Positions 6,206-60,426 of a DNA stretch of 64,000 bases are shown here, piece after piece (within the stretch, counting starts at the first letter, position 1; each line of letters begins with the position of its first letter). The translations under genes and the position numbers were made by a program. Source of the stretch: Scenedesmus sp. PABB004 (Eukaryota); the NCBI GenBank assembly GCA_014905635.1, contig JABVCE010000020.1:124001-188000 (forward strand), read 5' to 3'. The notes under the pieces are model-generated. The model saw only the letters and a program-made list of their open reading frames with translations. It did no database searches and had not been told where the DNA came from.

Positions 6206-8982
6206 TCATGCCGCGCACAGGCCCGTGATGTTGGTGTTGCGCAGCGGGTGCGGTTCCAGCGCCGCGCCGCTCTCCAGCTCGCTGATCGGCACCCAACTCG
6301 TGCAGCCCCCAGGCTCCTCGCACACGCGCGGGTGCACCAGCACCTCCGTGCCGCGCTCGAGCCACGCGCGCGGCAGGCAGCCCGAGAGCCGCGGGTTGTC
6401 GCTGATGCCCAGGTTATTGAGCGGCATTGCCGCCCACTCTGCCGCTGGAAACTCACCCCGCAGGTCGCAGTAGCTCACATCCAGAGCACGCAGGCGCATG
6501 CCGCTCCACTCGGGCGGCAGCGTGGCGCCGAGCGGGTTGCCGGTGAGGTTGAGGCCGTTCAGTGTCGCCGACCAGGTGCCCCACTCGGGCGGCAGCGGGC
6601 CGCAGAGCTGGTTGTCGGCGAGATTGAGCCAGATGTATCCCGAGCAGCCTGGTGGCAGCAGGTGTGGATTTGGCGCTTAGTCAGGCAACCAGCCGGGCCT
6701 GACAGTAGCGCGCCGCCCGCCCAGCCGCCAGCAGCGGCAGCATGAGCGCACGTGGGCTGCCAGCAGCCCACCTTGACCGACATCCCAGCGTGCCCAGGCG
6801 GCCGGCAGCGTGGAGGTGAGGGCGTTGCCAGAGAGGTCGATCTTGCCAGCCCAGCCCCCTGGCGCCTCGGGCAGCGGGCCAGTGAGCTGGTTGTGGGCGA
6901 GGTTGAGCGCGCGTCCGCAAAGCCGAGGTGTGCTGCCAGCCGCCCACCCCGCCCAGCCGTCGATGGGGCCCGTCAGCTGCGGGCGGCGCGGGGCGGGTCG
7001 CACCGCAGGTCGGTCTGCGTCCGCGTGCGCCGTGCCGCCGCCTTGCCACCGCTGCCAGGCGACGCAGCGCACCTGGTTGTGGCTGAGGTCCAGGACCTTG
7101 ACATTGTTCATGAACACCCTGGGCGGCAGCGACCCCGACAGCGCGTTGTTTTGCAGGTACACAGAGCTCAGCGCTGCCATGCCGGCCCAGGCCTCGGGGA
7201 CTGCGCCGCTCAAGCTGTTGCTTGACAGGTCCAGCGTCGTGAGGTTGGCCATGCCGGCGCCCCAGGCGCTGGGCAGCGAGCCGGTCAGCACCTGGCCATG
7301 GAGGTCCAGCGACTGCAGCACGGTGAGCGCGCCCCACGACGCCGGCAGCGTCCCGCCGATGTGGTGCGCAGGGTCTTGAGAAACGCGCAGCTTGCGCAGC
7401 ACGGGCAGCGCGCCGGGTGCCAGGTCGTCGGCCAGGGAGGTGAAGCGGGCGTTGACGATTGTCACGCGGTCCACACGCGGCGGCAGCGCCGCCAGCGACA
7501 GCCGGCCAGTCAGACCCAGGCCGGAGAGGTCCAGCGTCTTGAGGCGCGCCATGCCGTGCCAGTCGGGCAGGGGCGCGTCGGCCGAAGAGAGCAGCAGCTG
7601 CAGGGCCAGCGCCTCCAAAGCGGTGAGTGCGCCCCACGTCGCCGGCAGCACGCCCCCGACGGGGAACGCACGGTCTTGCCGGACGCGCAGCGAGCGCAGC
7701 GCGGGCAGCGCGCCCGGTGCAAGGTCGTCGGCCAGCGAGGTGAAGCGGCAGTCGGCAAACGACACAGTCTCCACGCTCGACGGCAGCGCCGCCAGGGACA
7801 GTGCGCCGGTCAGACCCAACTCAAAGAGCTCAAGCTTCTTGAGGCTCACCATGCCACGCCAGTCGGGCAGGGGCGCGTCCGGCGAGGAGATTGCCAGGCT
7901 CAGGGCCAACTCCTCCAGCGCGGTGAGCGCGCCCCAGGACGCCGGCAGCGTCCCGTCGATGGAGTGTGCAGGGTCTTGATAGACGCGCAGCAAGCGCAGC
8001 GCGGGCAGCGCGCCCCGCGCCACGTCGTCGGCCAGGGAGGCAAAGCGGGTGCCGGCAAAGAACACACGCTCCACGCTGGGTGGCAGCGCCGCCAGCGGGA
8101 GCGGGCCGGTCACGCCCACGTTCTGGAGCTCAAGCGTCTTCAGGCCGGTGAGGTTGCGCCACTCCGCAGGCCACGACGGGGCGCTCAAGATCACGTCTGT
8201 CGCTTGAATCGCCCCAAGGCTGGCTGCCTCCAGCCCAGGGCCGAGCTCGCCCCAGGCGCGGGGGAGGCGGCCTGTCGACGGTTGGCTGAAGTACACGGCG
8301 ATCGTCGTCACCACGCGCGGCGCGCGGCCAGAGCACCTCCCTGCCAGGTGCACGGCTCGGTGCCGGCGCGCCAAGACTTGACGATTGGCTCGTTGCGCTG
8401 CAGGCCCAGCTCCTCCAGGCCGCGGCGCAGAATGGCCCCCAGCGGGTCGTCGGGCGGGCTGAGGGTCTCGTTGCATGCGGCCGCGCTCTTGGCGCCAGGG
8501 CCGGGCGTTGTCGTCAGCGCAGGGCAGGTGTTGCAGGGCCTGATGCCGGCCCCCGGCTTGGAGTTTGCCCACGTGCCGGTCGGGCAGGGCTCGCAGGTGC
8601 CGCCCGCGAGCGCCAGGCCGTAGCCGGCCCGGCAGTCGCTGCAGGCCGCCGGCGACGTCGTGCCTTCATGGGCTGTGGTGCGGCCCTTTGGGCAGCCCCG
8701 ACACCTGGCGTCCGGCCCGCCGGGCGACCACGAGCCGCGCTTGCACAGCGCGCAGTCGCCCGCGCCGGCCGACACGCCGCTGCCGGGCAGGCACTCAGCC
8801 GCGGGCGTGGCACTAGCGACCAGCAGGCTGCGGGAGCCACTCCCATCCGCCAGCAGGCCGCGCCTGCTGGGCCCGCGCGCCGCCGCGCCGCCGGCCGGGG
8901 CGGCCGCGAGCAGCAGCGCCAGCGCCGCCGCCGCCAGTGCGAGCGCGTGCCGCGCCAGCGCGCGGCCGCTGCGGCTGGGCAT
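6206..8982 (-). pseudogene. LRR cassette copy 1: signal peptide + Cys-rich (GCC2/GCC3-like) repeats + plant-type LRRs; frameshifted
   Basis: MPSRSGRALARHALAL..., CxxCxxGxWS repeats, EPCTWQG then frame switch at ~8335-8340 into CSGRAPRVV; LxxLDLSxNxLxG repeats; two introns shared with the paralogues; ends LRNTNITGLCAA*. Confidence 0.8.
7330..8150 (-). repeat. About three tandem 300-bp units, each 100 aa (four LRRs)
   Basis: Aligned landmarks recur at exact 300-bp period: ggcagcgccgccag at ~7482/7782/8082; gtcgtcggccag at ~7424/7724/8024. Confidence 0.9.
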
Positions 8983-9689
8983 GACTGGCCGGGAGGCGGA
9001 GCGCGTGCGGGCGAGGCGTGCCGGCCGCCCAGGGCGCGCTGCGACAGCGGACTGCGCGGGGTTGGTCTCGTGCCCACGGGGCCGCGGCAGCGCGGCGGTG
9101 CTAGAGTGTAAGTGTGTCGTGCGATGGATTCGAGTGGATGAAATGGATCGAGACCGGCGGTGCGGCCTGGTCGAGCGGGGCGGAGGCTGGCGCGGAAGCG
9201 CCCCAGAAGCGGAGCGGAGCCGTGCGGGCACCTGCCCGGCTGGCAGCGCTGTTGGGAGTTTTGACGCACACAGCGGCCGCACGGGGTGTGCGGGCAGGCC
9301 GCGACGAGCGTCACCGCGCGCCGCCGCTGCTCGCGACCTCTTGCAGCACAGCGCAGCCGCGTCCCCCTGGGCCGCGGCATCCCATGGTTGGGTGGCATGA
9401 GGCCAGAAGCGCACCCGGGCGGGCACGCGCCGGCGCACTGCGCTGCGCGCTGCGCTGCGCCCTGTGCTCCGGCCCCACCCGCCAGACGCCGCCTTGCTGA
9501 TGGGAATAGTGCCCCTCCACACGAGGCTGCGCCGCCCCTGCAGCGTCGGGAACGTCCCTGCAGACGCTTGAGAGCACAGCGGCGCAAGCGCGCAGCGCAT
9601 GCGTGCGTGCGTTGAGGCAGCCAGGCCAGGCGCTGCCTTCCGCCGTTGCTCGACTGTCAGCGGCGCCGCAGCGCACACGCGCCACTTTG

Positions 9690-11150
9690 CGCAACCCAAG
9701 CTCGGTCCCGCATGCGCAGCAACCCACACACATGAGTTGCGGAAGGCCGGCCGGCAGCGCACGCGCGCCGCCAGCAGCGCACCCCCACCAGCCCCAGCCC
9801 CACCAGCAGGGCTGCTGCCTGCTCAGTCCGGCGCCAAACCTGGCGGCCGCGCCTCCCGCGCCCCCGTGTGTTGAAAGCTCCCCAAGCGCAGTCACACTGC
9901 CAATGCATATGCCCCCTCGCTGCGGCGCAGAGAGGCGGCCCAGTGCCAGTGCGCGCGCGCCCAACTTGATTCTGGTGCCCCCCGGTCGCGCCACACCGCC
10001 CGACCCCCACGCAAGCTGGCCAGCTCAATAAATCCAGCCGGGCGGTTTGCACACATTGGCGCGCTGAGCGCGTCGGCGGCCCGCGCGAGTCAGGCTCTCA
10101 AATCGCCCGGCGCCCCGGAGACGCGGCCGCAGCGCCGCCCACGCAGCAATGTCGGCGCGCCGGGCTGGGGGGCGCTGCGCACCAATGAGGCCGGTGCATG
10201 CGTGCGTGCGTGGAGGCGGGGCCAGGCAGCCGCCTCGGGTCAGCCATCAAATGGCAGCGCGCCGCGCCACGCAGACCCCTGCAAACCCCAGCTCAATCCC
10301 ACCAGCACTCTTGAATTGGTGAACGCCCACGCCGGCAGCGCGCGCAGCCAGCGCCGCCCCCGCAGCGTGGTGGACCCCCCAGCAGTTGCTTGAGCGCACA
10401 GCAGACGCCGCGCCGCGCCCAGCCCCCACCCTAGTCAGTGCATTGCAAACAGTGCAAAAGCGCACATGCAGTGCAGCGGCACCGCGCCGGCGCGCCGCGT
10501 CCCACACCACGTCACCGCCGCCACCACCAGCGCTGTGCATGCGCCGCAGCCTTGGCCAGCAAGACCGATCTTGGTTGGGGCGAGCCGCCCAGTAGCCGTG
10601 CAGAGCCGGCATGCCGCCGGCAGCGCTCCCCGCCTGTCATTGAACGACCAAGCACATCCGCAGCCGGCCGCGGCCACCGCCACCAGCCCCATTGAACGAC
10701 CAAGCACACCCGCAGCCGGCGGCACCCACACCGACCCCCGCCACGCCAGCGCGAGCTTCCTGTTCAGTTCGGCGGCCCGCACCAAGCTTGGCGGCCGCGC
10801 CTCACGCGCCCCACGCCGTGCGCTGCTCGAGCACGCAGCAACACGTCTTGAGCTTCCCCAAGCGCAGTCATGCTGCCACATGCGGCAAAAGCCCCTCCTC
10901 CCCCAAGCCCCAAGCGCAGTGAGGCGGCCCCGTGCCTGTGCGCGTGCAAATTCAAGCCTCGGCGCGCGCGACCAGCGAGCGACCCACGCTAGCAGCTCCT
11001 GACCACCCGGCGCGCCAGTGGCCGCCCGCCGCCCACGCAGCAGCGCCACCGGGGGGGTCCCAGCGCCTGCCGCGCGCGCACCGCCGATCGTCAAAAGTGC
11101 ACCGGGGGTGCCAACACGCGCACGCCCCTCGCACCGACCAGCGACGGCTG
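9690..11150. repeat. Non-coding flank of the LRR cassettes, homologous (inverted) to 52990-53850 and 60490-61720
   Basis: caccacgtcaccgccgccaccaccagcgctgtgcatgcgccgcagccttggccagc (~10505-10560) matches the reverse complement near 53290-53345 and 61495-61550; 9690-9855 matches 61185-61350. Confidence 0.85.
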
Positions 11151-11154
11151 CTGC

Positions 11155-13674
11155 TCAGGGCGGGCAAATGCCGGCGACTTGGGTGTTGCGCAGCGGGTCT
11201 GGGTCCAACACCTTGCCGCTCGCCAGCTCGCTCACATCTACCAGCATGCTGCAGGTGCAGTTGGGCTGATAGTACAGCAGCGTTGAGTAACGCTCGGCCC
11301 ACGCGCGCGGGAGGCAGCCGGAGAGGTCTGGGTTGTCGCTGATGCCCAGATCGTAGAGCGTCATCGGTGCCCACGCTGCAGTTGGAAACTCGCCGCCCAA
11401 ACCGCAAGATCTTACGTCCAGCATGCCCAGGCGCATGCCGCTCCACTCGGGCGGCAGTGTGGCATTGAGCGGGTTGCCGGTGAGGTTGAGGCCGTACAGC
11501 GTCGTCTGCGAGGGCGATGACCAGTTACCCCACTCGGGCGGCAGCGGGCCGCGGAGCTGGTTGCCGGCGAGGTTAAGCGTGAAGCCCGCATAGCATCCTG
11601 CGGCAGCAGGCGAGGCGGCCGTGGGCTGCGGCTGGGATCGCCAGCGCGCCACGCGCCCAACACGCAGCCGCTGCCGCGCAGCCGCTGCCAGAGCAGGGGT
11701 TGCCCACCCTGGCAGAGGGGCCAGTTTGCCCAGGCGGCGGGCAGCGTGGAGGTGAGGGCGTTGTCCGACAGGTCAATGAGGCCAGCCCTGCGCCCCGGCG
11801 CCTCGGGCAGCGGGCCGGTGAGCTGGTTGTGGGCAAGGTTGAGGGTGGGGAATTCAACCTGATAGCAGTTCATGACCGTCGCCCATCCCGCCCAGTCGCT
11901 GACGCGGCCCGTCAGCTGCGGGGCGGCAGCACCGCGGCAGGGGAGCGCACAGGTCGGTGTGCACATATGCCGTCCGCGGTCAGCGAAACCCGCATGGGCC
12001 TGCCCTGCAAGCAGCACCTGCAGCAGCGCGCGCCGCGCCGCACCGCCCAGCCAGACGCCGCACCTGATTGTAGCTGAGGTCCACGCCCGGCACGTTGCTC
12101 AGCGCCCTGGCGGGGAGCGACCCACTGAGCGCGTTGTGCGACAGGTCCAGTTGCCTGAGCGCCGCCAGGCCGCCGGCCCAGGCCTCGGGGATGGGGCCGC
12201 TGAGTTTGTTGTACGACAGGTCCAGCCGCCACTCAATGCTGGCCAGGCCGCCCCATGCATCGGGAAGGGGCCCCGTGATGGCGTTGTGCGACAGGTCCAG
12301 CGTCGTGAGCGCCGCCATGCCGTCGCCCCAGGCGGCAGGCAGGGGCCCCGTGAGCGCGTTGCCGCTCAGGTAAAGAGTGGTCAGCGCCGCCATGCCGTCG
12401 CCCCAGGCGGCAGGCAGGGGACCGCCGAGCGCGTTGCCGTTCAGGTGCAGCTCTTGGAGCGCCGCCAAGCCGGCCCACGCCTCGGGCAGCGGGCCGCTGA
12501 GCGCATTGGCGCTCAAGTCGAGAGTCGTGAGCGCCGCCATGCCGGACCACGAGGCGGGCAGCGGACCGGTCAGCGCCAGGTTTTTGAGGCCCAGCTTCTG
12601 CAGCGAGGAGAGCGCGCCCCACGACGCCGGCAGCGTCCCGCCGATGGGGTGCGCGGGGTCTTGCTGTATGGTCAGCTCCACCAGCGCGGGCAGCGCGCCC
12701 GGTGCCACGTCGTTGCCCAGGGAGGTGAAGCGGTTGTTCATAAGGTCCACGCGCTCCACGCTCGGCGGCAGCGCCGTCAGCGGCGGCGCGCCGGTCATGC
12801 CCACATTGCCGAGGGAGAGGCCCTTGAGGCCGGTGAGGTTGCGCCACTCCGCGGGCCACGACGGGTCAGCGAGGCCGCTCCCTGCCTTGGTTTGGCCGTT
12901 GATGGTGATGCTCAGCCCCTCTAGCCCGGCGCCGAGCTCGGCCCACGCGCGCGGCAAGCGGCCGGTGCCTGCAACAGCAACGCCGACCCATTTCACCACT
13001 CGCGGCGTGCTGTCTGTGCAGAACACACCTTGCCAGGTGCACGGGTCTGTGTCGGGGCGCCACGTTGTGAGGAAGTTGGTGCCGAGCTGTCCTGGGGCCA
13101 GCTCCAGCAGGCCGCGCAGCAGCGCTGACGCCACCGGGTCGTCGGGGAGGGCGAGGGTCACGTTGCACGCGGCGATGCTCTTGGCGCCGGGGCCTGACGT
13201 TGTCGTCAGCGGGGGGCACGCCCGGCAGGGCTTGATGCCCTGCCCCGGCTTGGCGGAGCGCCACATGCCGGGCGGGCAGGGCGCACAGCGCCTGGCCTGC
13301 ACGTGGGGATCGCGCCCGTAGCCGGCCCGGCAGTCGCCGCAGGCCCACTCTGCCTGTGCGCCCTCGCCGGCGGTGTTGTAGCCCTTTCGGCAGGCCTGGC
13401 ACTTGGCGCCCAGCCCGCCTGGCGACCAGGTGCCGCGCTTGCACGGCGCGCACTCGCCGCCGCCCGCCGACACGCCGTTGCCGGGCGTACAGTTGGCCGC
13501 AGGCTCAGCTGTGGTGGCCAGCAGGCCACGAGAACCACTCACATCCGCCAGCAGGCCGCGCCTGGGCCCGCGCGCCGCCGCGCCGCCGGCCGGGGCGGCC
13601 GCGAGCAGCAGCGCCAGCGCCGCCGCCAGTGCGAGCGCGTGCCGCGCCAGCGCGCGGCCGCTGGGGCTGGGCAT
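11155..13674 (-). CDS. LRR cassette copy 2: intact secreted Cys-rich + LRR protein (PGIP/RLP-ectodomain-like, no TM or kinase)
   Basis: Continuous frame MPSPSGRALARH...DPCTWQGVFC (LRRNT cap)...repeated LTGPLPAAWGDGMAALTTLDLSHN; introns after SYNQ| and LCQG|; ends LRNTQVAGICPP*. Confidence 0.9.
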
Positions 13675-14229
13675 GACTGGCTGGGAGGCGGGGCGAGTGC
13701 GGGCGGGGCCTGCCGACCGCCCAGGGCGCGCTGCGACAGCGGATTGCCCGGGTTGGTCCCGCGCGCACGGTGGGCCGCGGCAGCGCACCGCTGGGCCGGT
13801 GCGGAGGTGACGGTGCGATAGAGGCGGGGCGAACGGCGCGGCTGCGCAGCGGCGGTGCGGCCTGGTCGAGCGGGGAGGGGCTCGCAAGCCCGAGCAGGGC
13901 CCCGGAAGCAGGGCCTGGCGGGCGCGTCCGGGGCTGGCGGCGCGGCTGGGCGTCTGGGCCGACCCACCACTGCGAACGGAGGCGGCCGCAGCCGCACGCG
14001 CAGCACGGGCGCGGCGTCACCGCAGCGCCGCCGCTGCTCGCGGGCGCTCCGCGAGCCGCGCGCTGGCGCAGCGGCCAGGCTGGGTCCGTGTGGGTCGCGG
14101 CGCTGATTGTGCCATTTGCAGCCAGGAAGCACCCACCCAAACGAATGCACGCGCGCGTGGCGTCGCCGCCGCGAGCACACGGCGCGAGGTCGCGCAATGC
14201 CCCCCGCCCTCCCCCCGCCGGCCGCTGTC

Positions 14230-17621: not shown

Positions 17622-17949
17622 CGCGACGCAGGGGCGGGCGCGCCCCTCACACGCCCGGCGGCTGGTGTGCTCGCTGCTCGCTGCTCGCAGCCCCCCGCGC
17701 TCCGCTGCCGGCGCGTGCGCCGGCGCTTGCGCCGGCAGCAGCGGCGTGTGTGGTGATGTAGGCGCGACAGGCGGGCGCCGCAGGTGAGCGGTGCGACCAC
17801 GGTGTCGGCCGCCGCCGGTACGGTCGGCGCCGCCGCAGCGAGCGCGTCGCGCCCGGCGGCGCCACTGAACCCCGAGTCGCGGTCGCCTTCGAGTGCTGCT
17901 GCCGCCCGCGGGTGCGTTGTGTAACAGGAGCGAGTTGCCGCAGCGAGCG

Positions 17950-36378: not shown

Positions 36379-36447
<69 letters not shown>

Positions 36448-45836: not shown

Positions 45837-45868
<32 letters not shown>

Positions 45869-49537: not shown

Positions 49538-49573
<36 letters not shown>

Positions 49574-50006: not shown

Positions 50007-50542
50007 CACGGCCAGCACGCCCCGCTGCGGGCTGAGCAGCACACCGGGCTGGGCAGCTCTGCCTGCCACGCGCTGGGCAGGCAGTATGTGTTACAGCCGC
50101 CACACCAGGCAACGCCGGCCCCACACGGACCCGCAGCGCCGCCACGCGCCTGCCGCGCGCCGAGCGGGCGAGCGACGAGCAGCGGCGGTGCGGTGACGTC
50201 CGCGCCCGTGCCGCACGCAGGCCGTGCGTTCGCCGCCGTTCCGCACTGCTGGGTCGACCCAGGCGCCCAGCCGCGCTGCCAGCCCCGGACGCGCCCGCCA
50301 GGCCCTGCTTCCCGGGCCCTGCTCGGGCTTGCGAGCCCCTCCCCGCTCGACCAGGCCGCGCCGCCGCTCCGCCGCCGTGCCGTTCGCCCCGCCTCCATCG
50401 CACCGTCACCTTCGCACTGGCCCAGCGGCGCGCTGCCGCGGCCCACCGCGCACTGCGAGACCACCCCGGGCAATCCGCTGTCGCAGCGCGCCCTGGGCGG
50501 CGGTCAGGCCTCGCCCGCACGCGCTCCGCAAGCCAGGCAGTC

Positions 50543-52952
50543 ATGCCCAGCCGCAGCGGCCACGCGCCGGCGCGGCACGCGCTCGCACTGGCGGCGGCGC
50601 TGGCGCTGTTGCTCGCGGCCGCCCCGGCCGGCGGCGCGGCGGCGCGCGGGCCACGGCGCGGCCTGCTGGCTGAGGGGGCCGGCTCGCGGGGCCTGCTGGC
50701 CGCCACCGCCGCGCCCGGCAAGGTGTGTAAGCCCGGCACCGGCGTGACGCTGGGCGCAGGCAAGCGCGGCACTTGGTGCCGGCCGTGCAAGGCCGGCACC
50801 TGGTCTGCCGGCGGCCTCAACGCCAAGTGCAAGGCCTGTCGGCAGGGCTACAAGACCGTTGGAGAGGGCGCGACGAGCTGCAGCGACTGCCGGGGCGGCT
50901 ACGGCCTGCCGTTGAACGCAACAGACGTCTGCGAGCCCTGCCCAGCCGGCACGTGGCGCGACGCCAAGCCGGGCGCGGGCATCCAGCCCTGCAACGCGTG
51001 CCCCATGCTGACGACGACAGCAGGCCCCGGCGCCAAGAGCGTCGCCGCCTGCAACCAGAGCCTGGCCCTCCCCGACGACCCGACCGCGTCGGCGCTCCTG
51101 CGCGGCGCGGCGGAGCTGGGCCCGCAGCCCAGTGATGGTGCGCTGGCGTCGTGGCGTCCCGACACCAACCCCTGCACCTGGCGAGGCGTGGTCTGCTCAG
51201 TGCCGCGCGTGGTTAATTGGCTCAACGTTGAACTCGCAGGGCCGTGCACCGGCCGCCTGCCGCGCGCGTGGGGCGAGCTCGGCCCCGGGCTGGAGTTGCT
51301 GGCCATCACTAGCTACGGCAGCGCCAGCCTCGCCGACTCGTCGTGGCCCGTGGAGTGGCGCAACCTCGCCGGCCTCAAGCGCATCCGGCTCGAAGGCATG
51401 GGCATGACCGGCGCGCTGTCGCTCGCGGCGCTGCCGCCCGAGTGTGGAGAGCGTGACGCTTATCAACAACCGCTTCACCTCCCTGGCCGACGACCTGGCG
51501 TCGGGCGCGCCCCCCGCGCTGGCTCAACTGGTCATCGTGCAAGATCCCCCTGCGCACCCCATCGGCGGGACGCTGCCGGCGTCGTGGGCCGCGCTCGCAA
51601 CGCTGCAGGCGCTAGTCCTCCGCAACCAGGCGCTGACCGGCCCGCTGCCTGCCGCTTGGGGCGCCGGCATGGTGACACTTAGAGAGCTGTACTTGGGCGG
51701 CAACGCGCTGACCGGCCCCCTGCCTGCCGCCTGGGGCGACGGCATGGCGGCGCTGATGTGGCTGGACCTGTCGCACAACGCCATCACGGGGCGCCTTCCC
51801 GATGCGTGGGCCGGCATGGCCATGGCCAACCTCACGTCGCTGGACCTGTCGTACAACAACCTGACCGGCCCCATCCCTGAGGCCTGGGCCGACGGCCTGG
51901 CGGCGCGGGGGGTGATGAAACCGCGGATGATGAAACTGGACCTGTCGCACAACGCGCTCAATGGGTCACTGCCCGCCAGGGCGCTGAGCAACGTGTCGGT
52001 CCTGGACCTCAGCTACAACCAGGTGCGGCGCCTGGCCGGGCGGCGGCGCGGCGCAGCAGCGCGCTGGCGTGGGCAGGCCCCGCGCGCGGGCTGCGCTGGC
52101 AGCTCACGGCAGGCTCGTGTGCGCACCGACCTGCGCCCTGCCATGCCGCGCTGCCGCCGCCCCGCAGCTGACGGGCCGCATCGACGGCTGGGCGGGATGG
52201 ACACCGGCTGTAAGCTGCTCCCTAAGCCTGAACCTCGCCCACAACCAGCTCACCGGCCCGCTGCCCGAGGCGCCGGGGGGCAGGGATGGCTTCATTGACC
52301 TGTCGTACAACGCCCTCACCTCCACGCTGCCGGCCGCCTGGGCACGCTGGGATGTCAATCAAGGTGGGCTGTCGCGCTGTGCTGTGACCACTGCCGCCGG
52401 TGCTCGAGCGCGGGGCATGCTGCTGGCAGGCCCAGCCGGACGCCATGTGACCATGGCGTCCGCCCCACATCTGCTGCCGCAGGCTGTGGCGTGGGCGTGA
52501 ACCTCAACCTCGCCGGCAACCAGCTCCGCGGCCCGCTGCCGCCCGAGTGGGGCGCCCGGTCGTCGCCCAAGCCGCACACGACGACGCTGTCCGGCCTCAA
52601 CCTCACTGGCAACCCGCTCGACGCCACGCTGCCGCCCGAGTGGGGCAACAGCACAAGCCTGAGGACGCTGGACGCGCGGTTCTGCGGCCTGCGGGGCTCG
52701 ATTCCAGCTTCAGCGTGGGCTCCGATGACGCTCTCTGCACTTGGCATCAGTGACAACCCAGACCTCTCTGGCTGCCTGCCCCGCGCATGGCTCAAGCTAA
52801 AGGGCTACACGTTGCTGCTGGTGCCACCGACCGGGTGCGAGCTGCCGGAGGGCTGCACCACGTCGGTGCCGCTGAGCGCGCTGGAGAGCGGCGCGCCGCT
52901 GGACCCGGACCCGCTGCACGGCACCAACGTTACTGGCATGTGCGCGCCGTAG
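50543..52952 (+). pseudogene. LRR cassette copy 3; +1 frameshift at ~51440
   Basis: Same signal, Cys-rich and LRR layout; ctgccgcccgagtgtggag has one extra base versus LPPSVE in the paralogues; ends HGTNVTGMCAP*. Confidence 0.8.
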
Positions 52953-52989
52953 CGCCTCTGTGCAGTGCGAGGGGCGCGCGCGTGCGTTG

Positions 52990-53850
52990 CTTGCACCACC
53001 AGAAGCACGCTTGTGCCGAACCGGCAAACGCATTGAGGACAAGCTGTTTGCGCCTGCCAGCATGACCGCGCTCGGGGGAGCTCATGGCGTGGGGCGCGGC
53101 CGCCAGGCTTGGCGTGGGCCGCCGCACTTAACAGGGGAGCATTCGCTGCTGCGGCGGGGGTGGGTGTGGTGTGGGCGCGGCTGGCTGCGGGAGGCGCTGG
53201 TTTTTCAATGACAGGTGGGAAGCACTCCCGGCGGCATGCCGGCGCTGCACGGCTGCTGGGCGGCTCGCCCCAACCAAGATCGGGGCGGCTGGCCAAGGCT
53301 GCGGCGCATGCACAGCGCTGGTGGGTGGTGGCGGCGGTGACGTGGTGCGGGGGACGCGACGCGCAGGCGCGGTGCCGCTGTGTTGCATGTGCGCTGGGGC
53401 ACCGGATGCACTGACCTGGCTGGGCGTGCCGGCTGCTGCGCTCAGGCAACCGCAGGGGCTTTCGTGACGTTTCATGGCGCTGGCTGTGCGCGTGTGCTGC
53501 AAGCTGGCGCGGGGCATTCACCAGACTGCCGAGGTGGGGGCCACTAGCCAAGGCTGCCGGAAAGTCCTGGACGTGGGGGGCTTGTGGCGCCGATCGGCGC
53601 TCGCGAGCCACCGTGCTGCATGTGCTGTGGTGGGACGCCGGATGCAAGTCCTTGGGTGGCGGCTGGGCACGGCGTCTGCTGTGCGCTCGAGCAACTGCTG
53701 GGGCGTCCACCGCGCTGCGCTGCAGGAGTGGCGCTGGCGGCGCGCGTCCGCTGCCGGGCCGGGCATTCACCAATTCATAGGCGTGGCTGCAGGATTGAGC
53801 TTCTTTTTGGACTGGCCTGTGCGGCGCACTGCCACTTGGCAATGGCGGCT
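52990..53850. repeat. Downstream flank of LRR copy 3, inverted homologue of ~10240-10875
   Basis: attcaccaattca (53765) vs tgaattggtgaa (10312); gtctgctgtgcgctcgagcaactgctgggg vs ccccagcagttgcttgagcgcacagcagac. Confidence 0.85.
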
Positions 53851-54325
53851 GCCCGCTCTACGCAACCCGCACGCCGGCTCGCGCGCGACGCGCACTGGCA
53901 GCCCTGGCGGGCCCTAGCGGAGCGCACCGCCCGTCCTCGGCGCGCGGTGAGCTGCCCCTGGGGACCGTCTGCGCCGCCGCCGTCGCCCCAGGCGCAACCG
54001 CCGCGAACCGCCGGCAAGTGAAGCAGCGGCACCAGCTAGTTACGCCGGGCGTGCGCCGCCTTGCGCCGGCCAAGCCTCGCCGCGCGCCGTGCCCCTGACC
54101 CTACGTAGACCCGGCACCACTCCCAGCCAACGCACAGCCGCCCACGTCCACCGGGCAGCGCGCATCGCGCAGACGAGTGCGCGCGACCCCGCGCTGCAGG
54201 CAGCTTCGGCCGCGTCTCATACCAATTCGAGGGCGACCCGCGGTCAGAGCGTTCTGTGCGGGCGGCGGGAGGCTGCAGGGCAGCGCTCGCGTGCGGGCCC
54301 TTCGTGGCACCGGCCGCGCCGGCCC

Positions 54326-57241
54326 ATGCGCCGCCGCGCGGCGTGCGCGTGGGCGGCGCCGCTGGGTGCCGCCCTGGTGCTGGCGCTGGCGCTGCCGGCG
54401 CGCGCAGCGAGCGGGTACGCCTGCACGCCAGCCGGCGCCAAGTGTTGCCCCGCCGGGCAGCGCTGCGGCGAGGGCGGGCTGCCCGGGTGCTCTGCCGGCT
54501 CCAAGCGTGAGCGCGCCGCGCGCGCGAGTCGCACGGCTGCGCGGCGCTGCGCCGCCGACCGCCGCACGCGCCGCCGCGCAGGCCCGTCGTGGCTCTACGG
54601 CTGCGCCGGCGAGTCATGGAACGCGGGCTCCGAGCGCCTGCCCGTCGACTGGAGCTACGCGGGCTACGCCGCGGGCGAGCGGCCCATCCCGAACAAGCCG
54701 GCATCGTCCGACGTCAGGGCGTTTGGCGCCAAGGGCGACGGCGCGAGCGACGACACCGCCGCGATCGCGCGCGCGGTCGCCGCGGCGCGCGACGGCGGCG
54801 TGGTGTTTTTCCCGCCCGGGCGCTACGTCGTGACGTCGCGCATTGACATCCGCAAGTCGGTCGTGCTGCGCGGCGCGGGGCGGCGCGCCACGGTGCTGTT
54901 CTTCCCCCGCAGCCTCGCCGACGCGCACGGCAACCGCGGCGGCTGGGGGCACGGCACGTGCTTCATCAACTTCTGGGGCTGGTGCGCTGAACGCAGACTG
55001 CGCGGCCGGGCTGGCCGCCTCCGCCGCCGCGCGCGCGCACGCGCGCGCGGGCGCGAGCGCCGGCCGCCGGCCGCCGGCACCGCAGGAACCCGGTGCGCTG
55101 GGACACGCAGCTCGCGCGCGTCACGTCGGGACGCCTGCCGCGCGGTGCCAAGACGCTCGACGTGGACAGCACAGCGGGCATCAAGCCCGGCGCGTGGGTG
55201 CGCCTCGTGCTGCGCGACTCGCGTGAGCGGCGCGCCGCGCCGCGCCGCGCCGCGCAGCAGGGCATCTGGGGGCCCAGCCACGGGGCGCCCACACCCGCGC
55301 CCAGCGCAGCCGTGACGCCGCCTGCACCTCTCGTGCGCCCGCGCGCTGCGCAGCTGAGGTCTTCAAGGCTGTGCTGATGAATGGTCTCATGGAGCCGGGC
55401 TGGTGCGCCGCGGGGGGCCTCCTTGGCCCTGCCGCCGGGGCGCCGGGGCCGTGGGGGACGGTGTGGACGCGCGGCAACCTCAGCCGCTCACACGCGCCGC
55501 GCCCGCGCCGCCCGCGTGTGTGTGCACATCAGGCCCAGCAGCGCCGCAAAGAACATCGTCCGCTTCACGAGCCGCGTGGCGTCGGTGGGCGGCGGGCGCG
55601 TGACGCTCGAGCGGCCCCTCCCCTGGGAGGTGCGTGCGCTGGCGGCCGCGCTGCGCCGCGGCCGCGCCGGCCTGGCCGCGTCCCGAGCGCCCGCCGCTGC
55701 CGTGGCAGGTGCGCGGCGAGTGGGGCCCGACGCTGCACGCGGTGCGGCCCACGGTCACCGAGGCGGGCGTGGAGCACATGACGCTGGAGTTCAAGTGGAC
55801 CAAGTGAGCCCGGGCGCACGCTGCGGGCCGCACGCGCTGCCCCCCCCCCCTGCGCACGAGCTGCCCGCGGCCGCATGAAGTCGCGTTGCTCGTGAGGTGC
55901 GTGCGGGCTGGCGCCCCTGAGCCCTCACCCCTTGAACCCTAAACCCCTGCCCCCCAGGTACAACGGGCACCTGAAGGAGGACGGCCTCAACGCGATCCAC
56001 TTCAACCAGCTCGCCCAGAGCTGGGTGCGCGACGTGGCCATAATCAACGCCGGTGGGCGCCGCGGCCGCGCCGGAGGCCGCGCCGGGGGCGGGCAGGCAG
56101 CGCGTGGGCAGCGCGGGGCCGCCGGCGCGCGGCGCGGCGCGCGGCGGCTGAGCGCGGAGGGCCGCGCCGCGCCGGGCGCAGACACTGGCATCTACATGTG
56201 GGGCGCCTCCTTCTGCACCATACAGGACGTCGAGCTGGGCGTCACCAGGTGCTGCGCGCGCGCGTGCCGGGCTGTGGGCGCGGGCCGGGCCGGACGAGGA
56301 GGGCGCGGGGGCGTGGCGGGACGGTGCACCCCAGGCCACCCCGCGCGCGCACCGACAGGCCGCCGCCGCCGCCGCCGCCGCCGCCGCAGCTTGCGCGCGT
56401 CTGCGGCGTACGACTACTGGGGCGGCCGCGACCGCAACGGCCACCGCGGGGTGTGGACCGAGGTGCGGCGCGGGCCCCTGTCCCCCGCCCCCGCCCCCGC
56501 CCCCGCCCCCGCCCCCCCCGCCCCCGCCCCCGCCCCTGCCTCGCCCGCCCGCTCGCGCCGCCGCCGTCGCCGCTGACGCGCCGCGCCCGTCCGGACGGGC
56601 GCAGTTTGGTGAGGCCAACCTGATGCAGCGCATCGCCGTCGCGGCGCCGTACGTTCACGACTTCAGGTGCGCGCAGCAGCGGCGCGCCCGCTCCTGCCCA
56701 TGCCCCCCGCTCCCCTGCTCACCGCGCCGCTGCTCACCTCCACGCCGCCGCGTCCGCGCGCCGCGCCGCCCCCGGCTCGCGGCGCAGCGTCGCAACGGGC
56801 GAGTTCAACAGCGTCTGGGCCGACTCCTGGGGCGCCGACCTCAACCTCGACTTCCACAAGGGCGGCCCGTACGCCAACCTGTGAGCCTGCAGGGGGGGGG
56901 GGGGGCAGCCGTGCCCCAGCTGCGCTGTGCGGCGTGGCGCGCGGACACGCGGGCGCGCGGCCCACGGCCCTGCACCCACCCGACTCTCTCCCCTCCGGCT
57001 TGGTCCCTCGCCGTGCCCGGCAGGTACACCAGCCTGGACCTGGGGCGGGGCACGCGGCCGTTCCGGTCCGGCGGCGGCCCGGGCGCCGGCCCGCACAGCG
57101 GCGCGCACCAGACGTTTTGGAACATTAAGGCACCCGCGCCCCTGCCGCTGCCGGACGCCGGCTTCGGGCCGGCGATGACGCTCGTCGGCGTGCCGACGCG
57201 CGACGCGGCCGCGAGCCGCGTCGCGGCGCGCTGGGTGCAGG

Positions 57242-57290
<49 letters not shown>

Positions 57291-57348
57291 GGCGAGCTTC
57301 CCGGCCAACCTGTGGGCAGCGATGCGGCGCCGCCGCCTGGGCTGGTGA
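54326..57348 (+). CDS. Secreted right-handed beta-helix protein (Pectate_lyase_3-type N-terminal motif), multi-exon
   Basis: Signal + small Cys-rich module; DWSYAGY, DVRAFGAKGDGASDDTAAI, VVFFPPGRY, VVLRGAG; GVEHMTLEF, SWVRDVAI, NLDFHKGGPYANL, HSGAHQTFWNI. Confidence 0.85.
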
Positions 57349-57855
57349 CGGCGCGCTGGACGTGGGGGCGGCGTGCCCAGGTCCGAGTGCGCTCCTCGGC
57401 GTCAGGCCGTCACCAGGCAACGCCGGCCCCACACGGACCTGCCGCGCCGCCACGCCTGGCGCGCACCGAGCGGGCGACCGGAGGAGCAGCGGCGGCGCGG
57501 TGACGCTGCGCCCGTGCCCCGCACGCAGGTCATGTGCGTCCACCACAGCTCCTCAGTGCTGATTCAGCCCAGCCCAGACGCCTAGCCGAGCTGCCAGGCC
57601 CTGGACGCGCCAGGCCCTGCTTCCCGGCCCGGGATCCCGGCTGTACCCGCTTTCTCCCGCTCGACCAGGCCGCACCGCCGCTCCGCCGCCGCGCCGTTCG
57701 CTCCGCCTCCATCGCACCGGCACCTCAGCGCTGGCCCAGCGGCGCGCTGCCGCGGGCCACCGAGCGCACGAGACCAACCCGGGCAATCCGCTGTCGCAGC
57801 GCGCCCCGGGCGGCGGGCAGGCCCCGCCCGCACGCGCTCCGCCTCCCAGGCAGTC

Positions 57856-60426
57856 ATGCCCAGCCGCAGCGGCCACGCGCTGGCGCGGCACGCGCTCGCA
57901 CTGGTGGCGGCGCTGGCGCTGCTGCTCGCGGCCGCCCCGGCCGGCGCCGCTGCGGCGCGCGGGCCCAGGCGCGGCCTGCTGGCGAATCAGCGTGGCTCCC
58001 GCGGCCTGCTGGCCTCCGCCGCTGCGCCCACCGTTACCTGTTCGCCCGGCAGCGGCGTGTCGGACGGCGGCGCCGGCGAGTGCGCGCCGTGCAAGCGCGG
58101 CACCTGGTCGGCGGGCGGGCCGGGCGCCAAGTGCCAGGCCTGCAAAAAGGGATATACCACGATCAAAGAGGGCTCTACATCATCGTGGCCTTGCCAGTAC
58201 TGCCAGGACGGCTACGGTCGGGGGGCGCCCGGCAAAGGCTGCGTTCTCTGCCCGACCGGCACATGGAGCGCCGCCACGCTGGGCTCGCGCATCAAGCCCT
58301 GCAACGCCTGCCCCTTGCTAACAACGACGGCAGGCCCCGGCGCCACGAGCGTGGCCGCGTGCAACGTGACCCTCGCCCTCCCCGACGACCCGCGCGCGTC
58401 GGCGCTGCTGCGTGGCCTGCTGGAGCTGGGCCCGCAGCTCGGCACTCCATACTTGGCACCCACCGACTGGCACCCCGGCACCGACCCGTGCACATGGCTG
58501 GGCGTGAGCTGCTCAAACAGCACGCCGCGCGTGGTCACAGGGGTCGACATCGCCCTCACAGGACCGCGGACCGGCCGCCTGCCGCGCGCGTGGGCCGAGC
58601 TCGGCCCCGGGCTGGGGGAGCTGAGCATCAACGTCCAAAACATCAGGGGCCAGAACTACAGCCAGGCTGGTCTCAGCAACGCGTCGTGGCCCGTGGAGTG
58701 GCGCAACCTCACCGGCCTCAAGAGCCTCTCCCTCGGCAACGTTGGCACGACCGGCCCGCTGTCGCTGGCGGCGCTGCCGCCGAGCGTGGAGAGCGTGTGG
58801 CTTTCTGACAATCGCTTCACCTCCCTGGCTGACGACGAGCCGGGCGCGCTGCCCCCGCTGTGTGGCCTTCTCGTCATCCAATACTCTGAGCTGACCTGCG
58901 CGTCGGTCAAGACTCTGCGCACCGCATCGGCGGGACGCTGCCGGCGTCGTGGGGCGCGCTCGATGCACTGCAGTCGCTCGACCTCCCCAGCCAAGCACTG
59001 ACCGGCCCGCTGCCCGGGGCGTGGGGCGGCATGGCGGCCCTCACCTCTCTCGACCTGTCGTACAACAACATCAGCGGCCCCCTGCCCGGGGCGTTGGGCG
59101 GCATGGCGGCGCTCACCACTCTTGATTTGCGCAACAACGCGCTCAGCGGCCCGCTTCCCGAGCCGTGGTCCGGCATGGCGGCGCTCCAAGATCTGCGCCT
59201 GAGCGGCAACGCCCTCGACGGTCCCCTGCCTGCCGCCTGGGGCGCCGGCATGGCGGCGCTCACGTTGCTGGACCTGTCGCACAACGCCATTATGGGGCCC
59301 CTTCCCGATGAGTGGGGCGGCCTGGCGAACCTCACATCAATGCAACTGTCGTACAACAACATCAGCGGCCCCATCCCTGACGCCTGGGCCGGCGGCCTGG
59401 CGGCGCTGCAAACTCTGCAGCTGTCGCATAATGCCTTCCATGGGTCACTGCCCGCCAGGGCGCTGAGCAACGTGCCGGTCCTGGACCTCAGCTACAATCA
59501 GGTGCGGCGCCTGCCTGGCTGGGCGGCGGCGCGGCGCAGCGGCGCGCTGGCGTGGGCAGGCCCCGCGCGCGGGCTGCGCTGGTCACGGCACGCTCGCGTG
59601 TGCACCGACCTGCCGCGGAACCGCCGCCCGCAGTTGACGGGCCGTATCAACGACTGGGCGGGGTGGATGCGGGTGGGGGTGGAGCATCAGTGGTGCTTGA
59701 GAGGGATGACATTCGATCCCACCCTCAACCTCACCCACAACCAGCTGACCGGCCCGCTGCCCGAGGCGTTGATCGGACGGTCTGGCGGCATCGACCTGTC
59801 GGACAACGCCCTCACCTCCACGCTGCCGGCGGCCTGGGCGCGTGGCGAAGGTGCGGACTGGCGGGCTGCCGCCGCTGGTGGTGTTCGAGCGACCGCCGCG
59901 GCTGCAAGCGCGGTACGCTGCAGGGGGCAGGCCCAGCCACATTGCATGACCGCGGCAAACTTGCCGCCGCCACCAGGCTGTGCCGAGGGCGTGAACCTTC
60001 ACCTGGCCAACAACCAGCTCCGCGGCCTTGCTGCCGCCCGAGTGGGGCGCCTGGTCGTTGCCCAAGCCGCAGACGACGACGCTGTCCGTCCTCAACCTCA
60101 CCGGCAACCCGCTCAACGCCACGCTGCCGCCCGAGTGGGGCAACATCACAAACATGTGGCCGCTGTATGCGAGGTCCTGCGGCCTGAGGGGCTCGATTCC
60201 AGCGGCGTGGGCGCCAATGCAGTTCATTGACCTGGGCATCAGCGACAACCCGGAGCTCTCCGGCTGCCTGCCGCGCGCGTGGCTCGACGGTGGCCTGACG
60301 CTGCTGTATTATCAGCCCAACTGCACCTGCACCATGAGCGTGCAGCTGAGCGAGCTGGCGAGCGGCAAGACGCTGGACCCGGACCCGCTGCGCAACACGC
60401 AAATCGTCGGCATTTGCCCTGTGTGA
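57856..60426 (+). pseudogene. LRR cassette copy 4; frameshifts at ~58895 and ~60028
   Basis: Frame switches from IQYSELT into LRVGQDSAHRIGGTLP; cgcggccttgctgccg has an extra base versus RGPLPP; ends LRNTQIVGICPV*. Confidence 0.8.

What the first reader, a model, noticed from the sequence alone, without database searches (positions are those of the whole stretch)
6206..60426. Family of four diversified secreted Cys-rich/LRR genes: candidate variable-recognition system
Seen: four paralogues (6206-8982 -, 11155-13674 -, 50543-52952 +, 57856-60426 +) share a near-identical signal peptide, Cys-rich repeats, LRRNT cap, intron positions and LRR scaffold, but differ in LRR number and at the xxLxLxxN strand positions (TTLDLSAN, QELHLNGN, TTLYLSGN, RELYLGGN, MWLDLSHN, QDLRLSGN). 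No TM segment or kinase is visible. Established: those positions form the ligand-binding face in PGIPs, plant RLP/RLK ectodomains and lamprey VLRs. Inference: a soluble non-self-recognition or inhibitor family diversifying by module gain/loss and recombination. I do not know this domain combination as a characterised algal family.
Basis: partly seen in the sequence, partly recalled or inferred. Interest (0 to 1): 0.8.

Follow-up and report, generated by a model that had tools for sequence, protein, structure and literature searches.

The report
Fast-evolving secreted LRR gene family in alga
Four neighbouring genes of a very GC-rich green alga encode secreted leucine-rich-repeat proteins whose predicted binding surface changes unusually fast and whose parts are swapped between copies, which looks like a recognition family under pressure to diversify, though nothing yet shows what they bind.

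Summary
The four paralogues are real (75-80% nucleotide identity). All have the same build: signal peptide, two ephrin-receptor-like Cys-rich modules, LRRNT_2 cap, 17-23 plant-type LRRs, a Cys C-cap, two shared introns, and no TM segment or kinase.

- A lacks 1 nt.
- C has 1 extra nt.
- D has a 29-nt insert and 1 extra nt.

Near-identical short-read metagenome contigs lack the extra base in C (2 runs) and in D (1 contig), so at least these look like assembly errors. Read through, all four are open.

Concave-face codons evolve at omega about 1.1-1.6, against 0.43-0.53 for the rest of the LRR. The excess lies in LRR1-9 (omega 1.4-3.2); LRR10-19 gives about 0.8-1.05. The copies are mosaics: 137 informative sites split 52/43/42 over the three topologies and cluster in space.

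Only one other organism, Scenedesmus sp. PABB004, holds full-length relatives, which are auto-named 'FLS2' or buried in chimeric gene models.

Verdict: a lineage-restricted, diversifying, secreted LRR family that works like PGIP or Cf-9. The recognition role is inferred and expression is untested.

The parts
6206..8982 (-). Gene A. Exons 7073-8982, 6772-6976 and 6206-6648; introns 6977-7072 and 6649-6771. Read-through product 852 aa with about 23 LRRs.
   Evidence: The frame breaks after 8339 (1 nt missing relative to B, C and D, inside the LRRNT CxWxG..C motif). I could not check this against reads.
7302..8145 (-). 300-nt tandem unit in 2.8 copies inside gene A. It encodes a block of four irregular LRRs present three times.
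   Evidence: Tandem Repeats Finder: 77% matches. Self-BLASTN 7299-7845 against 7599-8145. The PABB004 protein P0001 has two such blocks.
11155..13674 (-). Gene B, the only copy open as written. Exons 12064-13674, 11708-11915 and 11155-11597; introns 11916-12063 and 11598-11707. Product 753 aa with 19 LRRs.
   Evidence: Pfam. AlphaFold2 model of exon 1 has pLDDT 85-98 over residues 180-537. Foldseek top hits are plant LRR-RK ectodomains.
50543..52952 (+). Gene C. Exons 50543-52022, 52168-52363 and 52483-52952; introns 52023-52167 and 52364-52482. Read-through product 714 aa with 17 LRRs.
51437..51439 (+). CCC run with one base too many, which frameshifts gene C. Probably an assembly error.
   Evidence: Contigs of runs X1 (323 nt, 0 other differences) and X2 (327 nt, 0 other differences) leave out 1 base at 51437 (tables 4 and 8). 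The two runs belong to one study.
57856..60426 (+). Gene D. Exons 57856-59501, 59634-59850 and 59977-60426; introns 59502-59633 and 59851-59976. Read-through product 760 aa with 19 LRRs.
58861..58890 (+). 29-nt insert found only in gene D, unique in the window, 52% GC. If cut as 58862-58890 it begins GT, ends AG and restores the frame and collinearity.
   Evidence: No laid contig is reported across it, so its status is open: mini-intron, real disruption or artefact.
60028..60029 (+). TT with one base too many, which frameshifts exon 3 of gene D.
   Evidence: One X2 contig (depth 5.26 of 29.7) leaves out 1 base at 60028; X1 has no cover there (table 4). Weak support for an assembly error.
13675..14105 (-). 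Conserved 5' flank of gene B. Homologous flanks lie at 50110-50542 (C), 57418-57855 (D) and about 8983-9190 (A).
   Evidence: Self-BLASTN hits run about 430 nt upstream of the ATG. Upstream-400 K is 0.12-0.19 among B, C and D, lower than coding dS of 0.29-0.32.
10633..11154 (-). 3' flank of gene B, homologous only to the 3' flank of D (60427-60948).
   Evidence: 80% identity. p-distance 0.10-0.21 for B-D against about 0.5 for the other pairs.

Best explanation
The four genes encode secreted, ectodomain-only LRR glycoproteins, that is, 'receptor proteins' without a membrane anchor.

The order of parts is:
- a signal peptide;
- a conserved RGPRRGLL stretch;
- two TNFR/ephrin-receptor-like Cys-rich modules;
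- a plant-type LRRNT cap;
- a 17-23-repeat solenoid of the plant receptor-kinase ectodomain type;
- a Cys-containing C-cap.

Most likely mechanism: they act outside the cell as binding proteins. The concave beta-sheet of the N-terminal and central repeats (LRR1-9) would be the variable, specificity-giving surface. LRR10-19 (including the exon-2 module) and the caps would form a conserved part that docks to a common partner or to the wall.

The family diversifies in three ways: duplication, gain and loss of single LRRs and of a four-LRR block, and exchange of segments between copies (gene conversion or unequal recombination).

Shown: architecture, fold, absence of an anchor, mosaicism, and where substitutions concentrate.

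Inferred: secretion, binding, the split into a variable and a constant half, and any role in recognising foreign molecules.
For: Architecture and fold:
- Pfam finds Ephrin_rec_like x2, LRRNT_2 and LRR_8.
- The best PDB sequence hits are GSO1 (1e-88), FLS2, MIK2 and PEPR1 ectodomains.
- The AF2 model has pLDDT 85-98 over residues 180-537, and a beta-strand starts 2 residues after each LRR start I assigned.
- Foldseek top hits are ERL1/2, MIK2, FLS2, PXY and BRI1.
- There is one hydrophobic peak only (the N-terminus). The proteins have 21-23 Cys and 5-13 NxS/T sites.

Intactness:
- All four CDS are stop-free once the four lesions are read through.
- Short-read contigs lack the extra base in C (2 runs) and in D exon 3 (1 contig).

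Selection:
- Concave-face omega on its own codons is 0.82-1.31. The core positions give 0.24-0.59 and the rest of the LRR 0.46-0.66. pN at concave positions exceeds that of random non-core LRR codon sets (p<=0.0005 in 3 of 3 pairs).
- With LRR-wide dS, concave omega is 1.08-1.61, and the bootstrap interval excludes 1 in 4 of 6 pairs. Other positions give 0.43-0.53.
- By region, LRR1-6 gives 2.0-3.2 (interval above 1 in 3 of 3 pairs), LRR7-9 gives 1.4-3.2, and LRR10-19 gives 0.78-1.05.
- Concave dN (0.37-0.50) also exceeds the upstream and intron K values (0.065-0.38) in the B, C and D pairs.

Exchange between copies:
- The closest pair changes along the locus.
- 137 informative sites split 52/43/42 over the three topologies. 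Adjacent sites share a topology 67 times, against 45.1+-5.4 in shuffles.
- The Cys-rich module of C is 95% identical to unit b of PABB004 KAF8059384.1, while its C-cap is 44% identical. That unit's C-cap matches B and D at 79-81%.
Against: - No RNA or protein evidence of expression could be obtained.
- The lesion in A and the 29-nt insert in D are unverified, so one or two copies may be dead.
- Omega comes from four non-independent sequences with a Nei-Gojobori count in a genome with GC3 of 0.88. Codon bias can depress dS.
- On the concave codons' own dS, omega is only about 1, which fits relaxed constraint as well as positive selection.
- Repeat shuffling may make some aligned LRRs non-orthologous.
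- The non-LRR parts also evolve fast (omega 0.61-1.07), so the speed is not confined to a binding face.
- The Cys-rich modules are modelled poorly (pLDDT 25-59).
- No ligand or partner is known.
Confidence: 0.6

Rival explanations
1. These are structural or adhesive wall/matrix proteins, for example for daughter-cell or coenobium cohesion or for wall assembly. Their surface residues would simply be under weak constraint. The fast change would be neutral drift plus gene conversion, not selection for new specificities.
For: - Omega at concave codons on their own dS is about 1 (0.82-1.31).
- The Cys-rich and cap regions are equally fast (0.61-1.07).
- Half of the concave face (LRR10-19) is not elevated.
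- A secreted pectate-lyase-fold gene lies between C and D.
Against: - In LRR1-6 concave dN is 2-3 times dS, with bootstrap intervals above 1 in 3 of 3 pairs. Neutrality does not predict this.
- Concave dN exceeds the intron and upstream divergence.
- A maternal cell-wall proteome paper on S. obliquus that matched PABB004 proteins lists no LRR or 'FLS2' entry in its main text. This is weak evidence: it concerns another species and I did not see the supplements.
Confidence: 0.22
2. These are gamete or mating-type recognition or adhesion proteins. Reproductive surface proteins also evolve fast and are secreted.
For: The pattern of rapid, localised amino-acid change. A search listing shows diatom studies that link LRR proteins with sexual cues and positive selection (PMC5485032, listing only).
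Against: Nothing in the window points to a mating locus: the neighbours are housekeeping genes. Several tandem and dispersed copies with shuffled modules are more typical of defence-type families.
Confidence: 0.08
3. This is a decaying cluster. Three of the four copies are pseudogenes, and the elevated dN/dS reflects loss of function.
For: Frame breaks in A, C and D as the window is written. Whole-gene omega is 0.66-0.82.
Against: - Two of the four lesions are absent from near-identical short-read contigs.
- The same stretch shows further single-base indels outside the genes (50448, 50454, 55932, 57778, 57781), as an error-prone assembly would.
- No stop codon occurs in 714-852 codons after read-through.
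- Scaffold positions remain under constraint (omega 0.24-0.59), and all Cys of the modules are invariant.
Confidence: 0.06
4. These are membrane receptors whose TM or kinase exon lies further downstream and was missed.
For: None found. I considered it because the closest solved relatives are receptor-kinase ectodomains.
Against: - The stop codon and the last ~45 residues are conserved in all four copies and in PABB004 P0001, P0273 and P0274, which also end there.
- The 3' flanks are unrelated except between B and D.
- Among 1.84 billion representatives no TM- or kinase-fused form matched the N-terminal 345 aa.
Confidence: 0.03

Closest known systems
Plant polygalacturonase-inhibiting proteins (PGIPs) and related secreted LRR 'receptor proteins'
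   Same: - Secreted and anchorless.
- LRRNT cap, plant-type 24-aa LRRs and a Cys C-cap.
- Small clustered families.
- The variable residues sit in xxLxLxx, with dN at or above dS there.
- The class 'receptor proteins (GPI-anchored or secreted)' is named in passages of PMC12757656.
- That PGIP concave residues are under positive selection is recalled from memory, not from a call.
   Different: - 17-23 LRRs instead of about 10.
- An extra N-terminal pair of ephrin-receptor-like Cys-rich modules.
- W instead of L at the GxLPxxW position.
- The organism is a chlorophyte alga.
- No enzyme-inhibitor activity is known.
Plant LRR receptor-like proteins of the Cf-9/Cf-4 type
   Same: - A variable N-terminal LRR region and a conserved C-terminal LRR region.
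- Copy-number change of LRRs and sequence exchange between clustered paralogues.
- The Cf-9 features are recalled, not from a call.
- Conservation of the last four LRRs (C3) in RLPs is stated in passages of PMC10834447.
   Different: - No TM segment or cytoplasmic tail.
- No island domain of 30-90 aa before the last four LRRs. There are only short Cys-containing loop-outs in LRR13 and LRR15.
- No known SOBIR1 or SERK partners.
Plant LRR receptor-kinase ectodomains (GSO1, FLS2, MIK2, ERL1/2, PXY, BRI1)
   Same: They are the best sequence matches (E 1e-88 to 1e-58) and fold matches (Foldseek E 2e-18 and weaker, TM up to 0.55) for the canonical LRR region. LRRNT_2 is present.
   Different: No TM segment and no kinase. 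The name 'FLS2' on the PABB004 homologue is an automatic label. Identity to FLS2 is 29% over the aligned LRRs.
Kinetoplastid PSA/GP46-like surface antigens
   Same: Strong LRR-region hits: Leptomonas and Bodo GP46-like proteins at E 8.5e-68 and 1.5e-45, 32-34% identity over about 55% of the query. The repeats are of the same GxLPxxW type.
   Different: The organisms are unrelated. PSA carries a GPI signal or Thr/Ser-rich region (recalled from memory), while here the C-terminus is not hydrophobic. PSA has no ephrin-receptor-like modules.
Lamprey variable lymphocyte receptors
   Same: An LRR-only recognition scaffold with a variable concave face and variable LRR number.
   Different: Here the genes are complete germline genes with introns. 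No cassette arrays flank them: tblastn with gene B finds only the four loci in 64 kb. There is no evidence for somatic assembly.

Membership tests
Plant-type extracellular LRR domain (LRRNT_2 + plant-specific LRR) | N-terminal cap with CxWxGVxC (Pfam LRRNT_2) | tested here: met
   PF08263, E 7.9e-6, 26.5 bits against a cut-off of 20.7, residues 185-220 of B. The motif is conserved in B, C and D, and interrupted by the 1-nt gap in A.
Plant-type extracellular LRR domain (LRRNT_2 + plant-specific LRR) | Tandem 24-25-aa repeats LxxLxLxxNxLxGxLP that form a solenoid | tested here: met
   LRR_8 E 6.6e-37. 19 units mapped in B. The AF2 model has a strand in each unit. Foldseek matches plant LRR-RK ectodomains.
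Ephrin_rec_like / GCC2_GCC3 Cys-rich module (PF07699) | Profile match above the gathering score | tested here: met
   E 8.1e-11, 42 bits against a cut-off of 23.1, 2 stretches. All Cys are invariant in the four copies. The fold is not confirmed: pLDDT is 25-59.
LRR receptor-like kinase | Transmembrane helix and cytoplasmic protein kinase domain | tested here: not met
   No kinase Pfam hit. There is no hydrophobic 19-mer with KD of 1.5 or more apart from the signal peptide. The stop codon is conserved in homologues.
LRR receptor-like protein (RLP) | Single TM helix with a short cytoplasmic tail | tested here: not met
   no second hydrophobic peak in any of the four products.
LRR receptor-like protein (RLP) | Island domain of 30-90 aa before the last four LRRs | tested here: not met
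   Only short loop-outs of about 8-15 aa occur in LRR13 and LRR15 (translations). The criterion is taken from passages of PMC10834447.
PGIP | Secreted protein of about 10 LRRs with N- and C-terminal Cys caps | tested here: not met
   Caps and predicted secretion are present, but there are 17-23 LRRs and an extra Cys-rich region.
PGIP | Inhibits polygalacturonase | not testable with these tools
   This needs a biochemical assay.
Lamprey VLR-type somatically assembled receptor | Incomplete germline gene flanked by donor LRR cassettes | tested here: not met
   All four genes are complete from signal peptide to C-cap. tblastn finds LRR matches only inside the four loci.
GPI-anchored LRR surface antigen (PSA/GP46-like) | Hydrophobic C-terminal GPI signal | tested here: not met
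   Mean KD of the last 25 residues is -0.06 to -0.20. I used no dedicated GPI predictor.

The most novel reading that the evidence does not exclude
A chlorophyte alga carries its own extracellular defence layer. This would be a clustered family of secreted LRR proteins that bind or inhibit molecules of parasites, viruses, bacteria or grazers. The family would renew its specificities as Cf-9 or PGIP loci do, through positive selection on the N-terminal concave face, LRR-block gain and loss, and module swapping between copies. A conserved C-terminal half would hand the signal to a common, still unknown partner. It would have arisen independently of land-plant RLPs and would be coupled to an animal-like TNFR/ephrin-receptor-type Cys-rich module.
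Probability: 0.25. Interest if true: 0.75.

Novelty: new variant of a known kind. Interest (0 to 1): 0.5.

Why it matters
Almost nothing is known about how green microalgae recognise pathogens, grazers or each other. Surveys of plant cell-surface receptors count algal LRR proteins but do not characterise them (passages of PMC10834447 and PMC12757656).

This family is small and clustered. It shows the hallmarks of plant resistance-type LRR loci: a fast concave face, a variable and a constant half, and module exchange. That gives a concrete, testable entry point into algal extracellular recognition, which also matters for crashes of mass cultures.

It also shows how assembly indels and read-through gene models can hide such a family. 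In PABB004 three of the four models that hold these units are chimeras named HISN4, cypD and radA.

Tried and rejected
- **Whole genome.** None is held for this window, so I could not count family members genome-wide.
- **Expression.** No RNA holder is listed among public runs. This says nothing about expression.
- **Read laying.** No reported contig bridges the 29-nt insert of D (58861-58889).
- **JGI metagenome contigs.** The scan with the N-terminal alignment matched 599 pattern stretches, of which 0 were relatives. The scan with the exon-3 alignment found 1 weak locus, L001, with 28 residues matched. Neither added members.
- **Synteny with PABB004.** tblastn of the cypD, HISN4 and radA/PEBP parts of the chimeric PABB004 models against the window gave no hit at E<=1e-5. 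The P450 next to gene B is therefore not that cypD, and I obtained no baseline for species divergence.
- **Neighbour used as a taxon marker.** The best hit of the pectate-lyase-fold ORF is a Monoraphidium minutum MAG protein at 57%, with no PABB004 hit. Whether the window's organism is PABB004's close kin remains open.
- **Cell-wall proteome paper PMC11839794.** 'FLS2', 'LRR' and 'leucine-rich' each occur 0 times in the main text. I did not read the supplements.
- **Earlier notes of this scan.** None by place or by sequence.
- **Literature searches.** They found no paper describing this family. This covers the held library only.
- **VLR-like somatic system.** Rejected, because the germline genes are complete and there are no cassettes.
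- **Repeats at 17.9-25.7 kb.** I saw no clear coding frame and did not pursue them.

Full report
**Setting**

The window is 71-83% G+C throughout and has spliced genes, so it comes from a eukaryote. The best protein relatives are from chlorophycean green algae: Scenedesmus sp. PABB004 for the family itself and a Monoraphidium MAG for a neighbour. A table in PMC12571836 (passages seen) gives PABB004 a 39.8-Mb genome of 78.5% GC, the same extreme composition. No whole genome is held for the window.

- Self-BLASTN links the four loci at 75-80% identity.
- A four-way alignment and junction mapping give the same three-exon structure in all four genes, with GT..AG introns of 96-148 and 110-126 nt at homologous positions.
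- Gene B (11155-13674, minus strand) is open as written and gives 753 aa.
- Pfam finds two Ephrin_rec_like stretches, LRRNT_2 and many LRRs.
- Each product has one hydrophobic peak (the N-terminal signal-like segment) and no TM segment or hydrophobic tail. Each has 21-23 Cys and 5-13 N-glycosylation sequons. I used no dedicated signal-peptide predictor, so secretion is inferred.
- LRR number differs: B 19, D 19, C 17 (two units missing), and A 23 (my count on the translation). A carries a 300-nt unit, a block of four irregular LRRs, in 2.8 tandem copies.

As written, three of the four frames are broken.
- A lacks one base after 8339, inside the LRRNT motif.
- C has an extra C in 51437-51439.
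- D has a 29-nt insert at 58861-58889 and an extra T at 60028/9.

I laid Logan contigs of two freshwater-metagenome runs on 50400-60500. The runs belong to one study and may be the window's own source, so they are not independent.
- Contigs otherwise identical to the window (323 and 327 nt, 0 other differences) leave out one base at 51437 in both runs.
- One X2 contig leaves out one base at 60028 (depth 5.26 of 29.7). X1 has no cover there.
- Further single-base indels against the window appear outside the genes, at 50448, 50454, 55932, 57767, 57778 and 57781.

So the window looks like an indel-prone assembly, and at least the lesion in C, and probably the 3' lesion in D, are artefacts.

Read through, all four CDS are free of stops over 714-852 codons. 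The gap in A and the 29-nt insert in D remain unverified. The insert is unique in the window and 52% GC (lowest 3.5% of 29-mers in these loci). If cut as 58862-58890 it starts GT, ends AG and restores the frame and collinearity with all homologues. It could be a mini-intron, a recent disruption or an artefact.

**Fold**

I modelled exon 1 of B (537 aa) with an 8-row alignment.
- Residues 180-537 have pLDDT 85-98, with one short strand per repeat beginning two residues after each LRR start I had assigned. This supports the register used below.
- The Cys-rich part is poorly modelled (pLDDT 25-59).
- By sequence the closest solved proteins are plant receptor-kinase ectodomains: GSO1 at 1e-88, then FLS2, MIK2 and PEPR1.
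- Foldseek gives ERL1/2, MIK2, FLS2, PXY and BRI1.

**How the copies evolve**

Whole-gene NG86 omega is 0.66-0.82, with dS 0.29-0.46 and GC3 0.88.

| Codon class (19 LRRs of B's register) | omega |
|---|---|
| Concave positions 2, 3, 5, 7, 8, on their own dS | 0.82-1.31 |
| Hydrophobic/Asn core | 0.24-0.59 |
| Rest of the repeat | 0.46-0.66 |
| Non-LRR parts | 0.61-1.07 |
| Concave, with LRR-wide dS | 1.08-1.61 |
| Other LRR positions, with LRR-wide dS | 0.43-0.53 |
| Concave, LRR1-6 | 2.0-3.2 |
| Concave, LRR7-9 | 1.4-3.2 |
| Concave, LRR10-19 | 0.78-1.05 |

- pN at concave positions exceeds that of random non-core LRR codon sets (p<=0.0005 in 3 of 3 pairs).
- With LRR-wide dS the bootstrap interval excludes 1 in 4 of 6 pairs.
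- For LRR1-6 the intervals lie above 1 in 3 of 3 pairs.
- Concave dN (0.37-0.50 among B, C and D) also exceeds the divergence of the upstream 400 nt (K 0.12-0.19) and of both introns (0.065-0.38).
- Position 3 differs in 81% of comparisons, position 2 in 56%, position 5 in 49% and position 7 in 40%. The conserved scaffold positions (1, 4, 6, 9 and 13-20) differ in 8-24%; positions 8, 12, 21 and 22 are intermediate (27-42%).

Caveats: there are only four sequences and the pairs are not independent. The method is crude and codon bias is strong. Some central repeats may not be orthologous.

**Mosaicism**

- The closest pair changes along the locus:
  - C-D in the far upstream region;
  - B-C just upstream of the ATG;
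  - all four nearly identical over the signal peptide (5-9% difference);
  - B-D in the first Cys-rich module;
  - B-C in LRR10-12;
  - C-D at the end of exon 1 and intron 1 (4%);
  - B-D in the C-cap and 3' flank.
- Within CDS plus introns, 137 parsimony-informative sites split 52/43/42 over the three possible four-taxon topologies. Same-topology sites cluster: 67 adjacent pairs against 45.1+-5.4 in 10,000 shuffles, none reaching 67. The test on the whole locus gives 123 against 79.6+-6.9, but part of that signal comes from the B-D-only 3' flank.
- Across organisms the same pattern holds. The Cys-rich module of C is 95% identical to the second unit of PABB004 KAF8059384.1, including a private 4-residue insertion. 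LRRNT plus LRR1-5 are 73% identical and the C-cap 44%. That unit's C-cap is 79-81% identical to B and D.

**Distribution**

- Among 1.84 billion cluster representatives, the N-terminal 345 aa of B matches over its full length only P0001 (KAF8059413.1, labelled 'FLS2', Scenedesmus sp. PABB004).
- There is a partial match to P0122 (KAF8059367.1, 'radA') and to a 203-aa Logan fragment at 35% identity. All other hits cover only the Cys-rich repeats of giant unrelated proteins.
- A search with exon 3 for longer proteins adds KAF8059384.1 ('HISN4', which holds two units) and KAF8059389.1 ('cypD', one unit).
- All of these lie on the same 737-kb contig, and three of the four models are read-through chimeras.
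- So PABB004 has at least five units within about 47 gene models, and the family is otherwise almost unseen.
- Two scans of JGI metagenome contigs added nothing useful.

**Surroundings**

The two gene pairs (A, B on the minus strand; C, D on the plus strand) are about 37 kb apart. Between and beside them lie ordinary genes:
- a P450 fragment (14.6-15.3 kb);
- inositol monophosphatase (25.6-27.4 kb);
- a WD40 protein (about 29 kb);
- an RRM protein (41-44 kb);
- a secreted-looking pectate-lyase-fold protein between C and D (53951-55312);
- GPI2/PIG-C (61.5-64 kb).

**Interpretation**

The data fit a secreted, anchorless LRR binding-protein family. Its N-terminal and central concave face is the variable surface. 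Its C-terminal LRRs, exon-2 module and caps are conserved. It diversifies by duplication, repeat gain and loss, and segment exchange.

In logic it works like PGIP and Cf-9-type loci (features of those recalled from memory). It fails membership of RLK, RLP, PGIP, VLR and GPI-anchored PSA on defining features tested here.

A recognition or inhibitor role against foreign molecules is the most attractive reading but is inference. Weakly constrained wall or adhesion proteins and mating-recognition proteins remain rivals. A dead cluster is unlikely.

**Literature**

- I saw passages of PMC10834447 (LRR-RLPs are ancient; conserved C3 region; island-domain criterion), PMC12757656 (definition of secreted 'receptor proteins'; LRR-RLKs in Chlorophyta), PMC12571836 (genome table) and PMC11839794 (no LRR or FLS2 in the main text).
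- Other titles I saw only in search listings.
- I read no supplements; they could hold proteomic or expression evidence for PABB004 homologues.
- Three searches of the held library found no description of this family.

Noticed in passing
window 13594-13711 and the homologous 5' ends of A, C and D: The stretch from about -37 to +80 (signal peptide plus the start of the RGPRRGLL region) differs by only 5-9% between all six pairs, with pS 0.02. It is far more conserved than both its flanks and the rest of the CDS. The same peptide recurs in PABB004 units. It could be a gene-conversion hot spot or a constraint at the nucleotide level.
   Followed up: partly
window 50684-51139 (gene C residues 48-199): The Cys-rich module of gene C is about 95% identical to the second unit of PABB004 KAF8059384.1, while the rest of the two proteins is 44-74% identical. 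Either the two organisms are very close and the LRR part has been overwritten, or a module was exchanged. I could not obtain a baseline for species divergence.
   Followed up: partly
window 58861-58890: A 29-nt, relatively AT-rich insert in gene D with GT..AG ends whose removal restores the frame. It could be a mini-intron far shorter than the other introns (96-148 nt), or a fresh disruption.
   Followed up: partly
window 50448, 50454, 55932, 57767, 57778, 57781: Single-base indel differences between the window and near-identical short-read contigs outside the LRR genes. This suggests the assembly has frequent indel errors, so frameshifts elsewhere in this genome should be treated with care.
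   Followed up: no
window 17949-18686 vs 23008-23782; 22425-22776 vs 25342-25693: Direct repeats of 330-350 nt at 85-94% identity, 3-5 kb apart, in a slightly less GC-rich stretch. I saw no clear coding frame or Pfam hit.
   Followed up: partly
window 10344-10739, 53156-53440, 60851-61100, 61314-61705, 9684-9876: A repeated element (82-87% identity) lies downstream of genes B, C and D and near A, partly in tandem at 60832-61100. It may be a shared 3' UTR or terminator region, or a small repeat that travels with the gene family.
   Followed up: no
window 53951-55312 (+): An ORF with an N-terminal signal-like segment and a Pect-lyase_RHGA_epim domain (E 1e-16) sits between genes C and D. Its best relative is a Monoraphidium minutum MAG protein at 57%. 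It is another putative secreted wall-active protein in the cluster.
   Followed up: partly
PABB004 proteins P0122, P0273, P0274 (not in the window): Three public gene models named radA, HISN4 and cypD are read-through chimeras. They fuse housekeeping genes to one or two units of this LRR family, in one case by translating the signal-peptide region in the wrong frame.
   Followed up: yes
window 55221-55266, 56352-56581, 57233-57298: Simple GC-rich repeats that read laying skipped. In translation they give long Gly/Ala/Pro/Arg runs.
   Followed up: no
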